Assembly (NCBI GenBank): GCA_964016885.1
Contig: OZ024762.1
Span: 13,578,001-13,642,000 of the forward strand
Direction of reading: 5' to 3'
DNA from: Eledone cirrhosa
Taxonomy: Eukaryota
DNA: 64,000 bases
The position numbers and the translations under genes are program-made. The notes under the pieces are model-generated. The model was not told the DNA's origin, searched no databases, and saw only the letters and a program-made list of their open reading frames with translations. Position 1 is the first letter of the stretch. Every line of letters starts with the position of its first letter. Below, piece after piece: positions 16,323 to 22,200 of the stretch.

Positions 16323-16561
16323 TATATATGTATATAATATATATTATATAAATATAAGTATGTACACGTACATACATATATGTATACCGACGTACAGTAG
16401 TATGTATATATATATATACATACATGCACACATATATATATGCACGTATGGATTCACCGAACATTTATTATAATGCTCGGTGTGTTTGTAAACAAACATC
16501 CCGTATTAAGCCGTAGTGTCTAGCAACCACCGTTGCTCGTTTGTTCAACACTGACAAAGGA

Positions 16562-16604
16562 ACGCTGTACTAGTTTCAAGCTTGTTAGCTATCGTCAGCA
16601 ACGT
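16562..16604 (-). ncRNA. Type I hammerhead ribozyme, first of 6 minus-strand copies in the left arm (repeating +422 bp to 18672-18714)
   Basis: Exact reverse complement of the 19208-19250 motif. Confidence 0.85.
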
Positions 16605-19207
16605 ATACCTTCCTGCCAGATTGTTGAACGTATATACTTACCTTATGCATATTAACGGCTGAGTAGCCCAATATGCATATCGAGTGGGTTAATCGGCCGG
16701 GTGCACCGAAAACGATAAACGGAAAAAATGAAACGATATTTCATTTCCCACTCTTAGTACGGCTGTTACTTAAATATAAGTATGTACACGTACATACATA
16801 TATGTATACCGACGTACAGTAGTATGTATATATATATATACATACATGCACACATATATATATGCACGTATGGATTCACCGAACATTTATTATAATGCTC
16901 GGTGTGTTTGTAAACAAACATCCCGTATTAAGCCGTAGTGTCTAGCAACCACCGTTGCTCGTTTGTTCAACACTGACAAAGGAACGCTGTACTAGTTTCA
17001 AGCTTGTTAGCTATCGTCAGCAACGTATACCTTCCTGCCAGATTGTTGAACGTATATACTTACCTTATGCATATTAACGGCTGAGTAGCCCAATATGCAT
17101 ATCGAGTGGGTTAATCGGCCGGGTGCACCGAAAACGATAAACGGAAAAAATGAAACGATATTTCATTTCCCACTCTTAGTACGGCTGTTACTTAAATATA
17201 AGTATGTACACGTACATACATATATGTATACCGACGTACAGTAGTATGTATATATATATATACATACATGCACACATATATATATGCACGTATGGATTCA
17301 CCGAACATTTATTATAATGCTCGGTGTGTTTGTAAACAAACATCCCGTATTAAGCCGTAGTGTCTAGCAACCACCGTTGCTCGTTTGTTCAACACTGACA
17401 AAGGAACGCTGTACTAGTTTCAAGCTTGTTAGCTATCGTCAGCAACGTATACCTTCCTGCCAGATTGTTGAACGTATATACTTACCTTATGCATATTAAC
17501 GGCTGAGTAGCCCAATATGCATATCGAGTGGGTTAATCGGCCGGGTGCACCGAAAACGATAAACGGAAAAAATGAAACGATATTTCATTTCCCACTCTTA
17601 GTACGGCTGTTACTTAAATATAAGTATGTACACGTACATACATATATGTATACCGACGTACAGTAGTATGTATATATATATATACATACATGCACACATA
17701 TATATATGCACGTATGGATTCACCGAACATTTATTATAATGCTCGGTGTGTTTGTAAACAAACATCCCGTATTAAGCCGTAGTGTCTAGCAACCACCGTT
17801 GCTCGTTTGTTCAACACTGACAAAGGAACGCTGTACTAGTTTCAAGCTTGTTAGCTATCGTCAGCAACGTATACCTTCCTGCCAGATTGTTGAACGTATA
17901 TACTTACCTTATGCATATTAACGGCTGAGTAGCCCAATATGCATATCGAGTGGGTTAATCGGCCGGGTGCACCGAAAACGATAAACGGAAAAAATGAAAC
18001 GATATTTCATTTCCCACTCTTAGTACGGCTGTTACTTAAATATAAGTATGTACACGTACATACATATATGTATACCGACGTACAGTAGTATGTATATATA
18101 TATATACATACATGCACACATATATATATGCACGTATGGATTCACCGAACATTTATTATAATGCTCGGTGTGTTTGTAAACAAACATCCCGTATTAAGCC
18201 GTAGTGTCTAGCAACCACCGTTGCTCGTTTGTTCAACACTGACAAAGGAACGCTGTACTAGTTTCAAGCTTGTTAGCTATCGTCAGCAACGTATACCTTC
18301 CTGCCAGATTGTTGAACGTATATACTTACCTTATGCATATTAACGGCTGAGTAGCCCAATATGCATATCGAGTGGGTTAATCGGCCGGGTGCACCGAAAA
18401 CGATAAACGGAAAAAATGAAACGATATTTCATTTCCCACTCTTAGTACGGCTGTTACTTAAATATAAGTATGTACACGTACATACATATATGTATACCGA
18501 CGTACAGTAGTATGTATATATATATATACATACATGCACACATATATATATGCACGTATGGATTCACCGAACATTTATTATAATGCTCGGTGTGTTTGTA
18601 AACAAACATCCCGTATTAAGCCGTAGTGTCTAGCAACCACCGTTGCTCGTTTGTTCAACACTGACAAAGGAACGCTGTACTAGTTTCAAGCTTGTTAGCT
18701 ATCGTCAGCAACGTATACCTTCCTGCCAGATTGTTGAACGTATATACTTACCTTATGCATATTAACGGCTGAGTAGCCCAATATGCATATCGAGTGGGTT
18801 AATCGGCCGGGTGCACCGAAAACGATAAACGGAAAAAATGAAACGATATTTCATTTCCCACTCTTAGTACGGCTGTTACTTAAATATAAGTATGTACACG
18901 TACATACATATATGTATACCGACGTACAGTAGTATGTATATATATATATACATACATGCACACATATATATATGCACGTATGGATTCACCGAACATTTAT
19001 TATAATGCTCGGTGTGTTTGTAAACAAACATCCCGTATTAAGCCGTAGTGTCTAGCAACCACCGTTGCTCGTTTGTTCAACACTTTTTTCCGTTTATCGT
19101 TTTCGGTGCACCCGGCCGATTAACCCACTCGATATGCATATTGGGCTACTCAGCCGTTAATATGCATAAGGTAAGTATATACGTTCAACAATCTGGCAGG
19201 AAGGTAT

Positions 19208-19250
19208 ACGTTGCTGACGATAGCTAACAAGCTTGAAACTAGTACAGCGT
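19208..19250 (+). ncRNA. Type I hammerhead ribozyme, first of 9 plus-strand copies (repeating +422 bp to 22584-22626)
   Basis: ACGTTG-CTGACGA-T-AGCT-AACA-AGCT-T-GAAA-CTAG-TA^CAGCGT. Core CUGANGA/GAAA, stem I ACGUUG/CAGCGU, stem II AGCU/AGCU, palindromic stem III ACUAGU. Predicted GUA cleavage after 19244. Stem I extends further (AAGG/CCUU, CUGGCA/UGUCAG, GUUCAACA/UGUUGAAC). Confidence 0.85.
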
Positions 19251-22200
19251 TCCTTTGTCAGTGTTGAACAAACGAGCAACGGTGGTTGCTAGACACTACG
19301 GCTTAATACGGGATGTTTGTTTACAAACACACCGAGCATTATAATAAATGTTCGGTGAATCCATACGTGCATATATATATGTGTGCATGTATGTATATAT
19401 ATATATACATACTACTGTACGTCGGTATACATATATGTATGTACGTGTACATACTTATATTTAAGTAACAGCCGTACTAAGAGTGGGAAATGAAATATCG
19501 TTTCATTTTTTCCGTTTATCGTTTTCGGTGCACCCGGCCGATTAACCCACTCGATATGCATATTGGGCTACTCAGCCGTTAATATGCATAAGGTAAGTAT
19601 ATACGTTCAACAATCTGGCAGGAAGGTATACGTTGCTGACGATAGCTAACAAGCTTGAAACTAGTACAGCGTTCCTTTGTCAGTGTTGAACAAACGAGCA
19701 ACGGTGGTTGCTAGACACTACGGCTTAATACGGGATGTTTGTTTACAAACACACCGAGCATTATAATAAATGTTCGGTGAATCCATACGTGCATATATAT
19801 ATGTGTGCATGTATGTATATATATATATACATACTACTGTACGTCGGTATACATATATGTATGTACGTGTACATACTTATATTTAAGTAACAGCCGTACT
19901 AAGAGTGGGAAATGAAATATCGTTTCATTTTTTCCGTTTATCGTTTTCGGTGCACCCGGCCGATTAACCCACTCGATATGCATATTGGGCTACTCAGCCG
20001 TTAATATGCATAAGGTAAGTATATACGTTCAACAATCTGGCAGGAAGGTATACGTTGCTGACGATAGCTAACAAGCTTGAAACTAGTACAGCGTTCCTTT
20101 GTCAGTGTTGAACAAACGAGCAACGGTGGTTGCTAGACACTACGGCTTAATACGGGATGTTTGTTTACAAACACACCGAGCATTATAATAAATGTTCGGT
20201 GAATCCATACGTGCATATATATATGTGTGCATGTATGTATATATATATATACATACTACTGTACGTCGGTATACATATATGTATGTACGTGTACATACTT
20301 ATATTTAAGTAACAGCCGTACTAAGAGTGGGAAATGAAATATCGTTTCATTTTTTCCGTTTATCGTTTTCGGTGCACCCGGCCGATTAACCCACTCGATA
20401 TGCATATTGGGCTACTCAGCCGTTAATATGCATAAGGTAAGTATATACGTTCAACAATCTGGCAGGAAGGTATACGTTGCTGACGATAGCTAACAAGCTT
20501 GAAACTAGTACAGCGTTCCTTTGTCAGTGTTGAACAAACGAGCAACGGTGGTTGCTAGACACTACGGCTTAATACGGGATGTTTGTTTACAAACACACCG
20601 AGCATTATAATAAATGTTCGGTGAATCCATACGTGCATATATATATGTGTGCATGTATGTATATATATATATACATACTACTGTACGTCGGTATACATAT
20701 ATGTATGTACGTGTACATACTTATATTTAAGTAACAGCCGTACTAAGAGTGGGAAATGAAATATCGTTTCATTTTTTCCGTTTATCGTTTTCGGTGCACC
20801 CGGCCGATTAACCCACTCGATATGCATATTGGGCTACTCAGCCGTTAATATGCATAAGGTAAGTATATACGTTCAACAATCTGGCAGGAAGGTATACGTT
20901 GCTGACGATAGCTAACAAGCTTGAAACTAGTACAGCGTTCCTTTGTCAGTGTTGAACAAACGAGCAACGGTGGTTGCTAGACACTACGGCTTAATACGGG
21001 ATGTTTGTTTACAAACACACCGAGCATTATAATAAATGTTCGGTGAATCCATACGTGCATATATATATGTGTGCATGTATGTATATATATATATACATAC
21101 TACTGTACGTCGGTATACATATATGTATGTACGTGTACATACTTATATTTAAGTAACAGCCGTACTAAGAGTGGGAAATGAAATATCGTTTCATTTTTTC
21201 CGTTTATCGTTTTCGGTGCACCCGGCCGATTAACCCACTCGATATGCATATTGGGCTACTCAGCCGTTAATATGCATAAGGTAAGTATATACGTTCAACA
21301 ATCTGGCAGGAAGGTATACGTTGCTGACGATAGCTAACAAGCTTGAAACTAGTACAGCGTTCCTTTGTCAGTGTTGAACAAACGAGCAACGGTGGTTGCT
21401 AGACACTACGGCTTAATACGGGATGTTTGTTTACAAACACACCGAGCATTATAATAAATGTTCGGTGAATCCATACGTGCATATATATATGTGTGCATGT
21501 ATGTATATATATATATACATACTACTGTACGTCGGTATACATATATGTATGTACGTGTACATACTTATATTTAAGTAACAGCCGTACTAAGAGTGGGAAA
21601 TGAAATATCGTTTCATTTTTTCCGTTTATCGTTTTCGGTGCACCCGGCCGATTAACCCACTCGATATGCATATTGGGCTACTCAGCCGTTAATATGCATA
21701 AGGTAAGTATATACGTTCAACAATCTGGCAGGAAGGTATACGTTGCTGACGATAGCTAACAAGCTTGAAACTAGTACAGCGTTCCTTTGTCAGTGTTGAA
21801 CAAACGAGCAACGGTGGTTGCTAGACACTACGGCTTAATACGGGATGTTTGTTTACAAACACACCGAGCATTATAATAAATGTTCGGTGAATCCATACGT
21901 GCATATATATATGTGTGCATGTATGTATATATATATATACATACTACTGTACGTCGGTATACATATATGTATGTACGTGTACATACTTATATTTAAGTAA
22001 CAGCCGTACTAAGAGTGGGAAATGAAATATCGTTTCATTTTTTCCGTTTATCGTTTTCGGTGCACCCGGCCGATTAACCCACTCGATATGCATATTGGGC
22101 TACTCAGCCGTTAATATGCATAAGGTAAGTATATACGTTCAACAATCTGGCAGGAAGGTATACGTTGCTGACGATAGCTAACAAGCTTGAAACTAGTACA

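What the first reader, a model, noticed from the sequence alone, without database searches (positions are those of the whole stretch)
16349..21995. Giant fold-back: 2736-bp inverted arms suggest twin-primed rolling-circle reverse transcription
Seen: 16349-19084 is the reverse complement of 19260-21995 with a 175-bp spacer, and the junction shares one T at 19084. In ribozyme-sense orientation both arms point their 3' ends outward into (TA)-rich tracts. Units look identical, including their internal (TA) runs, which normally mutate fast. Inference: both ends of a break in a TA tract primed cDNA synthesis on a circular RNA, ran about 6.5 and 9 laps, and were joined in the middle in one recent event. 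The locus could also extrude a cruciform or yield long dsRNA.
Basis: partly seen in the sequence, partly recalled or inferred. Interest (0 to 1): 0.85.

Follow-up and report, generated by a model that had tools for sequence, protein, structure and literature searches.

The report
Two-ended rolling-circle ribozyme insertion
This fold-back is one of many young insertions of a 422-base non-coding repeat with a predicted self-cutting RNA motif, and its fixed ends and the RNA-editing-like marks repeated in every lap of a sister copy suggest that a borrowed Penelope-type enzyme likely copied one small RNA circle round and round from both ends of cut DNA.

Summary
The unit holds a covarying minimal type I hammerhead, and its 26-nt core occurs 2,826 times in the genome. 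Most young copies have the same two arms. In 40 of 41 scored insertions one arm ends at site A and the other at site B, 59 nt further on (the Penelope 'tail'); inner junctions fall at scattered phases. Rare variants usually run through every lap of both arms. One single-armed sister array carries the same A-to-G changes (nine sites) in every lap, found nowhere else: an ADAR-like stamp pointing to one RNA monomer copied repeatedly. Best reading: a retrozyme circle reverse-transcribed from both DNA ends by a Penelope-like enzyme. Not shown: RNA, cleavage, the partner enzyme, raw reads over this junction. The scan already noted this layout for other families in this genome; my word search of its notes found no editing stamp.

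The parts
15689..16348 (.). Left part of the TA-rich target tract
   Evidence: same TT-over-AA polarity as the right tract (40/6 vs 52/10), so one tract, not mirror-image tails
16282..16348 (+). Target-site duplication, left copy (about 67 nt; holds the tract's only G, at 16330)
16349..19084 (-). Left arm: 6.48 laps of the 422-bp unit; outer 3' end at site A (unit phase 379; phase 0 = 19084), inner end at phase 176
19084..19084 (.). Head-to-head junction, one shared base, phases 176 and 0 (not a palindromic fold-back)
19084..22891 (+). Right arm: 9.02 laps; outer 3' end at site B (phase 9; family mode 13)
19208..19250 (+). Minimal type I hammerhead motif (first copy of the right arm; one per unit); predicted cut between 19244 and 19245; 2-bp palindromic stem III
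   Evidence: sequence; covariation on alignment A1; no Rfam hit
22840..22891 (+). 'Tail' between sites A and B, present at the end of one arm only; contains an 8-bp hairpin (22864-22884) also kept in a sister family
22892..22954 (+). Target-site duplication, right copy (63 nt; one TA run 4 nt shorter; holds the tract's only G, at 22935)
22892..23798 (.). Right part of the TA-rich target tract
32455..33040 (+). Older-subfamily copy of the same element (74% identity), separate insertion in another TA tract; compensatory change in hammerhead stem I

Best explanation
The locus is two back-to-back arrays of a non-coding 422-nt hammerhead unit inside a duplicated TA target, and it was likely written by a Penelope-like RT/GIY-YIG enzyme acting in trans that primed from both cut DNA ends on one small, probably circular RNA. 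Steps: (1) tandem transcripts self-cleave and close into a 422-nt circle (inferred; shown for other animals' retrozymes); (2) the enzyme makes staggered nicks about 65 nt apart in a TA tract (the duplication is shown, the nicks inferred); (3) one 3' end primes at site A, the other at site B 59 nt downstream, with 2-5 nt of TA microhomology (end positions shown); (4) both polymerases run lap after lap, displacing cDNA (inferred from lap-wide haplotypes); (5) the two cDNA ends are joined at unrelated phases by microhomology or patched end joining (junctions shown). My odds by step: one RNA monomer copied repeatedly 0.9; covalent circle rather than exact jumping on a linear monomer 0.8; Penelope-type enzyme 0.85; same molecule for both arms in most insertions 0.7.
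For: Layout is systematic: 23 of 28 young loci are two-armed, all with 3' ends outward. End rule: 40 of 41 scored two-armed insertions have one A and one B end (binomial 2e-11 against 50:50). Inner ends scattered: 32 distinct junctions; 1 of 60 inner ends near the ribozyme cut; 1 of 30 and 0 of 30 at the other arm's start site; either arm can be longer (13 vs 17); both arms exceed one lap in 24 of 30; lengths correlate (rho 0.59, n=30; 0.48 in 20 top-hit loci). Duplicated target in the window, and informative duplications of 10 nt or more at 6 of 41 loci against a null mean of 0.55, maximum 3. RNA stamp: L166 has nine A>G sites on the ribozyme strand, each in every lap that covers it (5.8 laps), plus only one other substitution and one TA slip; the haplotype is at that locus only; single-lap background is strand-symmetric, A>G 32 of 260; P about 5e-8 after discounting the site used to find it; 7 of 9 sites have a 5' U, none a 5' G. 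L171 repeats A64G, A68G, T74C, A157G in all 7 laps. Both arms share rare haplotypes in every lap at L076, L101, L102, L103, L046; the L076 marker has 13 genome hits, 8 in L076. 220 of 220 passes over the predicted cut site are scar-free. Hammerhead covariation 0 of 500 shuffles. Penelope-type ORFs abound. Literature: tail on one end and inverted 5' copy (PMC8557442, PMC3846280); two RT start sites bounding the tail and extension of both strands in vitro (PMC11167929).
Against: No RNA, cleavage or circle was observed. No coding partner with a similar terminus among the 50 stretches L121-L170. L050: the long arm carries a variant in 13 of 17 laps and the short arm not at all; L062 is mosaic, so some insertions used more than one template. 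Both A>G-stamped arrays are single-armed, and two more pattern searches found no two-armed one; arm sharing could also come from a common source locus or from later conversion between arms. Four of the nine stamped sites are unpaired in the predicted circle, no better than average. End-rule exceptions: L042 (B+B) and the older L093 (A+A). Some loci have palindromic junctions with mirrored variants (L083, L203), which fits fold-back. Long degenerate arrays (L077, L079, L110/L111, L165) show that DNA-level expansion also happens. Frangieh et al. saw internal initiation without homology to the target and no need for ribozyme cleavage in vitro.
Confidence: 0.7

Rival explanations
1. Same enzyme and two start sites, but the template is a long linear multimer transcribed from an existing array (no circle), or each arm uses its own RNA molecule within an asymmetric complex.
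For: Mosaic arms at L050 and L062; many arrays exist to supply multimers; in vitro, uncleaved RNA is the main Penelope substrate (PMC11167929).
Against: Identical A>G sets in every lap at L166 and L171 with no second array of that haplotype; editing of a multimer should differ by unit. No L1-type collision of one arm's inner end with the other's start site. Rare haplotypes shared by both arms at 5 young loci.
Confidence: 0.15
2. One-ended priming followed by self-primed fold-back: the second arm is a copy of the first cDNA, trimmed at the other site (self-priming was proposed for Penelope in PMC3846280).
For: Palindromic junctions with mirrored variants at L083 and L203, partly L062 and L055.
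Against: Most junctions join unrelated phases (2 of 32 within 8 nt), the window's among them. Inner-lap variants are not mirrored at L038 or L050. The tail-bearing arm is the longer one in 17 of 30 and the shorter in 13.
Confidence: 0.07
3. A short insertion was later expanded and inverted at the DNA level (unequal crossing-over, replication fold-back) and homogenised by conversion.
For: Old arrays of 16 kb and more with recurring sub-blocks exist.
Against: Those arrays differ at 10-40 sites per lap, whereas the window has none in 15.5 laps. DNA processes do not explain fixed A and B outer ends, scattered inner ends, the duplicated target or strand-specific A>G sets; DNA-level single-lap changes are symmetric.
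Confidence: 0.05
4. Assembly or library artefact (chimeric or amplified fold-back read; collapsed identical units).
For: No record bridged this junction in the 4 runs laid; lap number rests on the assembly alone.
Against: Flanks are unique, in direct orientation and carry a duplicated target; the outer ends match family sites; the assembly resolves single-lap variants elsewhere; contigs of another sample (X1, X2) hold 12 other joints from the left-arm part to the right-arm part.
Confidence: 0.03

Closest known systems
Animal non-LTR retrozymes (Cervera and de la Pena 2020, PMC7229834; Li, Clavereau and Pollet 2026, bioRxiv 10.64898/2026.07.22.740005)
   Same: Non-coding tandem units of 150-450 bp with a type I hammerhead, low GC, long target duplications, thousands of copies, Penelope-like elements in the same genome; circRNA template and Penelope mobilisation are proposed there.
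   Different: In the parts I read, neither paper describes back-to-back arms, fixed paired ends or sequence evidence that one RNA was copied lap after lap; Li et al. also invoke local amplification by unequal crossing-over. RNA circles were shown there, not here.
Penelope-like element insertions with inverted 5' copy and one-sided 30-40 bp tail (Craig et al. 2021, PMC8557442; Arkhipova et al. 2013, PMC3846280)
   Same: Head-to-head inverted arms, tail on one end only, TA-microsatellite targets, variable target duplication, minimal hammerhead.
   Different: No ORF; the tail is about 59 nt; both arms are multi-lap arrays, so the inverted part can be the longer one. Those papers ascribe the tail to endonuclease resolution and the inversion to self-priming; the data here favour two start sites used by two DNA ends.
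Anolis Poseidon (PAc) in vitro (Frangieh et al. 2024, PMC11167929)
   Same: Two adjacent internal RT start sites that bound the tail; both DNA strands cut and extended; AT-rich targets; predicted dimer.
   Different: Linear templates, AC-rich start region, no strand preference for either site and no homology to the target reported; here the starts are U-rich, end in a TA-compatible UUAU, and pair one of each per insertion.
L1 twin priming (passages in bioRxiv 10.1101/2024.08.27.596794)
   Same: Both nicks prime on one RNA; inverted 5' part; microhomology at the junction; correlated arm lengths.
   Different: In L1 one primer uses the poly(A) tail, the other a variable internal site, and the arms abut on a linear RNA; here both sites are fixed and internal, and both arms can pass the whole unit many times.

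Membership tests
Animal non-LTR retrozyme | Tandem non-coding units of about 150-450 bp, GC under 50% | tested here: met
   422-bp period, GC about 0.38, no ORF of 150 aa in the arrays
Animal non-LTR retrozyme | Type I hammerhead motif in each unit | tested here: met
   Core bases intact; 97.6% of cells paired, 6 pairs with two-sided change, 0 of 500 shuffles, slid controls 18-40%. Stem II covariation comes from 2 sister-family rows of 38; the U-U pair closing stem II is non-canonical; Rfam gives no hit
Animal non-LTR retrozyme | Dispersed, many copies, target-site duplication longer than 4 bp | tested here: met
   2,826 exact 26-mer hits, 0 control; duplications of 7-67 nt
Animal non-LTR retrozyme | Self-cleavage of the RNA | not testable with these tools
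   Needs in vitro transcription; in Li et al. only 1 of 9 predicted elements cleaved
Animal non-LTR retrozyme | Expressed as circular RNA | tested here: inconclusive
   Indirect only: lap-wide A>G sets and scar-free passes over the cut site
Penelope-like element footprint | Inverted 5'-truncated copy, head-to-head | tested here: met
   23 of 28 young loci
Penelope-like element footprint | Tail at one end only | tested here: met
   40 of 41; length about 59 nt, longer than the 30-40 nt described
Penelope-like element footprint | TA-microsatellite or AT-rich target | tested here: met
   Flanks listed
Autonomous Penelope-like element | ORF with RT and GIY-YIG endonuclease | tested here: not met
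   None in the unit; such ORFs lie elsewhere in the genome
Non-autonomous derivative of a named Penelope family | Terminal sequence shared with a coding element | tested here: inconclusive
   No match in the 50 stretches L121-L170 (46 chosen for GIY-YIG hits), out of 10,595 candidates
L1-type twin priming | Poly(A)-primed arm abutting an internally primed arm on a linear RNA | tested here: not met
   No poly(A); 1 of 30 and 0 of 30 inner ends at the other arm's start

The most novel reading that the evidence does not exclude
Penelope-type reverse transcriptases integrate by default as a two-headed machine: two protomers sit on two fixed sites of one RNA, each extends one end of a staggered cut, and on a retrozyme circle they chase each other round by strand displacement. 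Each array is then a many-fold DNA record of a single germline RNA molecule, its ADAR edits included. This would explain the one-sided tail and the inverted copy of all such elements and give direct genomic proof of circRNA retrotransposition.
Probability: 0.5. Interest if true: 0.85.

Novelty: new variant of a known kind. Interest (0 to 1): 0.67.

Why it matters
Two questions are stated as open in the papers read: whether retrozyme circles are really the templates for tandem insertions, and how Penelope elements make their inverted copy and one-sided tail. This family lets both be read from sequence: lap-wide editing stamps argue for one monomer copied repeatedly, and the one-A-one-B rule links the in vitro pair of start sites to the two DNA ends. 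It defines a minimal substrate (422-nt RNA, two sites, TA target) for a direct test, and a natural RT that would copy small RNA circles for up to 16 laps is of technical interest. It also shows a route by which satellite DNA is seeded in one step.

Tried and rejected
Rfam: no hammerhead hit; only TA-hairpin miRNA look-alikes below their cut-offs. A type III reading of the ribozyme was dropped because the older copy at 32.5 kb breaks its stem while keeping the type I stem. Six-frame ORFs of the window are low-complexity. Sequencing runs: no RNA holder listed; none of the 4 runs laid (at most 3 samples, contigs only) bridges the window's junction; neither is evidence either way. Partner search: GIY-YIG scan, long-ORF loci and a hairpin scan gave Penelope families with other hammerheads, none sharing this unit's terminus; a related hammerhead led only to a non-coding sister family. 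Two searches for a two-armed edited locus found none. The L165 unit with both L076 markers is not its source: it carries a different background. Inner ends are not piled at the ribozyme cut. Mirror-image synthesised TA tails were rejected: both flanks have the same strand polarity. The twin-hairpin motif of earlier notes was not tested on this unit.
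Full report
OBSERVATION. The stated arms are exact reverse complements (2,736 nt, 0 mismatches). The true structure is two arrays of one 422-bp unit: 16349-19084 on the minus strand (6.48 laps) and 19084-22891 on the plus strand (9.02 laps), with no difference between laps and one shared base at the junction. The 175-nt 'spacer' is a register offset. Phases below count from 19084 = 0. Each TA tract has exactly one G (16330 and 22935) in the same context; a 28-nt word around it occurs only at these two places in the window, and 16282-16348 aligns to 22892-22954 but for 4 nt in one TA run. 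This is a target-site duplication of about 63-67 nt. Both tracts have the same strand polarity, so they are one broken tract.

THE UNIT. It has no ORF and folds well (z -7.7 sense, -5.2 antisense). At 19208-19250 lies a minimal type I hammerhead that I read by eye; Rfam misses it. On 38 distinct copies (36 of this family, 2 of a sister family; one per locus, old satellites, 4 unrelated and 4 truncated rows left out) the named structure is 97.6% paired with 6 two-sided changes, beyond 500 of 500 shuffles and far above slid controls. The tool warns that relatedness can inflate this; one stem I pair changes on both sides in 12 rows. Stem III is a 2-bp palindrome, which by PMC7229834 suggests dimeric cleavage. 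Cleavage is untested.

THE FAMILY. The window lies in G000, a 3.0-Gb assembly with an animal-type repeat landscape. A 26-nt core has 2,826 exact hits, control 0; the first 100 fall in 45 clusters over 96 Mb, suggesting on the order of 1,400 loci (my extrapolation). I fetched the 27 loci listed among the best BLAST hits (40 of 256 candidates were scored), the first 39 and 6 further clusters, and loci chosen by variant. In the young set 23 of 28 loci, window included, are two-armed, always minus then plus; 21 of the 22 with readable ends have one arm ending at site A (phase 373-379) and one at site B (phase 9-13). Over all loci of at least 90% identity, 50 insertions were two-armed, 41 had both ends callable, and 40 of 41 were A+B (L069 contributes three, two of them duplicates; P 2e-11 against 50:50). 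Exceptions: L042 (B+B) and, in an older subfamily outside that count, L093 (A+A). Older subfamilies near 80% identity keep the rule at L061, L065, L070, L073, L099. Single-armed copies exist, roughly a quarter of the unselected set. The 59 nt between A and B match the Penelope 'tail'. Both sites end in UUAU, allowing 2-5 nt of pairing with a TA primer.

INNER JUNCTIONS. 32 distinct young junctions: 18 overlap by 1-7 nt, 12 have inserted bases, 2 are blunt; random joins overlap 45% of the time. Phases are spread (A arms uniform, B arms weakly clustered, P 0.04). 1 of 60 lies near the ribozyme cut, and 1 of 30 and 0 of 30 lie at the other arm's start, unlike L1 twin priming. The A arm is longer in 13 and the B arm in 17; both exceed one lap in 24 of 30 (L040, whose left end is in a gap, is typed A by default there). 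Arm lengths correlate (rho 0.59; 0.48 in 20 top-hit loci). Informative duplications of 10 nt or more occur at 6 of 41 loci against a shuffled mean of 0.55; pure TA hides most.

ONE RNA, MANY LAPS. L166 (G000:C2:78934747-78937196; single arm, A end, 5.8 laps) has nine A>G sites on the ribozyme strand, each in every lap that covers it, and otherwise one substitution and one TA slip. Its distinctive words occur only there. Single-lap variants across the family are strand-symmetric (A>G 32, T>C 28, C>T 30, G>A 30 of 260), so eight further A>G beyond the site used to find the locus have P about 5e-8. Seven of nine have a 5' U and none a 5' G, the ADAR preference (recalled knowledge; P 0.025); only five of nine are paired in the predicted circle, which is no enrichment. 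L171 repeats three A>G and one T>C in all 7 laps. Counting by hand the lap-wide private changes at L076, L104, L166 and L171 that were not used for selection, 12 of 14 are A>G, and 4 of 6 without L166 (P 0.003); the stricter automatic filter gives 6 of 15. An edited linear multimer would differ from unit to unit, so one monomer was copied repeatedly. 220 of 220 passes over the predicted cut site in the young set are exact (the test sees only scars between two intact 10-mers), which favours a closed circle over end-to-end jumping.

BOTH ARMS. L076 carries two changes in every lap of both arms; one marker has 13 genome hits, 8 of them in L076, and the only other unit seen with both sits in an old satellite with another background. 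A variant with 58 genome hits fills both arms at L101, L102, L103; a 426-nt length variant fills both arms of L046 but for one lap; older L178, L181, L182 share several changes. Against: at L050 the same variant fills 13 laps from the primed end of one arm and is absent from the other; L062 is mosaic. Template switching or two templates must occur at times. No two-armed multi-site edited locus was found, so use of the same molecule is likely, not shown.

ENZYME. GIY-YIG candidates number 10,595 (150 scored, all over the cut-off); three of five ORFs tested hit both RT and GIY-YIG, one of 938 aa; L164 is itself a back-to-back pair of coding fragments. None of the stretches examined shares this unit's terminus. 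A non-coding sister family keeps the hammerhead scaffold and the tail hairpin, hinting at a recognition element. The partner is unidentified.

ARTEFACT AND SIDE CLAIMS. No record bridged this junction (contigs only). Contigs of another sample, where a different variant is nearly fixed, hold 12 other joints from the left-arm to the right-arm part, often with extra letters (library not on record). With unique direct flanks, a duplicated target and family-typical ends, an artefact is unlikely. Cruciform extrusion across a 175-nt offset is doubtful (recalled knowledge), and old two-armed copies persist; dsRNA needs read-through, untested.

LITERATURE. Read: bioRxiv 10.64898/2026.07.22.740005, parts 1-3 of 5; PMC11167929, parts 1-2 of 4; PMC7229834, Discussion and passages; passages of PMC8557442, PMC3846280 and 10.1101/2024.08.27.596794. 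No supplements were read; they may show such arrays. Searches listed no paper on two-armed retrozyme arrays or editing-stamped laps; most subscription journals are outside the library. The scan's notes report the same layout for 310-, 430-, 434-, 442-, 467-, 487-, 530- and 615-nt families of this genome; these are unchecked and not independent support. A word search for an editing stamp gave 0 notes, a sequence search no note on this unit.

VERDICT. Real, and a member by sequence criteria of the animal retrozymes with a Penelope footprint. The locus itself is one of many; the mechanism it documents is the new part. New variant of a known kind, interest 0.67.

Noticed in passing
L166:3747-6196 (G000:C2:78934747-78937196): Array with the same nine A>G sites in every lap; an apparent DNA record of one ADAR-edited RNA. 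Worth a follow-up of its own, and the same test applies to the other retrozyme families.
   Followed up: yes
L171:3044-6040 (G000:C10): Seven-lap single arm with three A>G and one T>C in all laps, and a further change in the last two laps.
   Followed up: partly
L050 (G000:C1:392885869-392895227): Long arm switches haplotype after 13 laps from the primed end; short arm has another haplotype: possible template switch between circles.
   Followed up: partly
L077/L169, L079, L110/L111/L167/L168, L165: Older arrays of 10 to over 30 kb of the same unit with recurring sub-blocks: retrozyme insertions turned into satellites; L079 still has a short inverted B arm at its start.
   Followed up: partly
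L105:2500-3300 and L184:1-560: Non-coding sister family with the same hammerhead scaffold and tail hairpin, also back to back at L105.
   Followed up: partly
L164:3795-5990: Back-to-back pair of 5'-truncated coding Penelope-like fragments; this family (L154, L160, L170) has a hammerhead-like motif in its 3' untranslated part.
   Followed up: no
L039 and L105, 5' side of the arm: Two single-armed copies abut the end of the same other element, whose motif resembles the hairpin of earlier notes.
   Followed up: no
L083, L203, L062, L055: Minority class with palindromic junctions and, at L083 and L203, mirrored variants: true fold-backs alongside the main route.
   Followed up: partly
window 58012: Another hammerhead-like motif of a different repeat family, also seen in L035, L044, L057, L076, L079.
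   Followed up: no
L115-L118; L069: The same insertion recurs in four near-identical stretches (and L069 holds repeated blocks): segmental duplication or unplaced haplotypes.
   Followed up: no
window 30158-30544 and 4504-4969: A 99-bp tandem repeat (3.9 copies, 88%) and a compound CAC-rich minisatellite.
   Followed up: no
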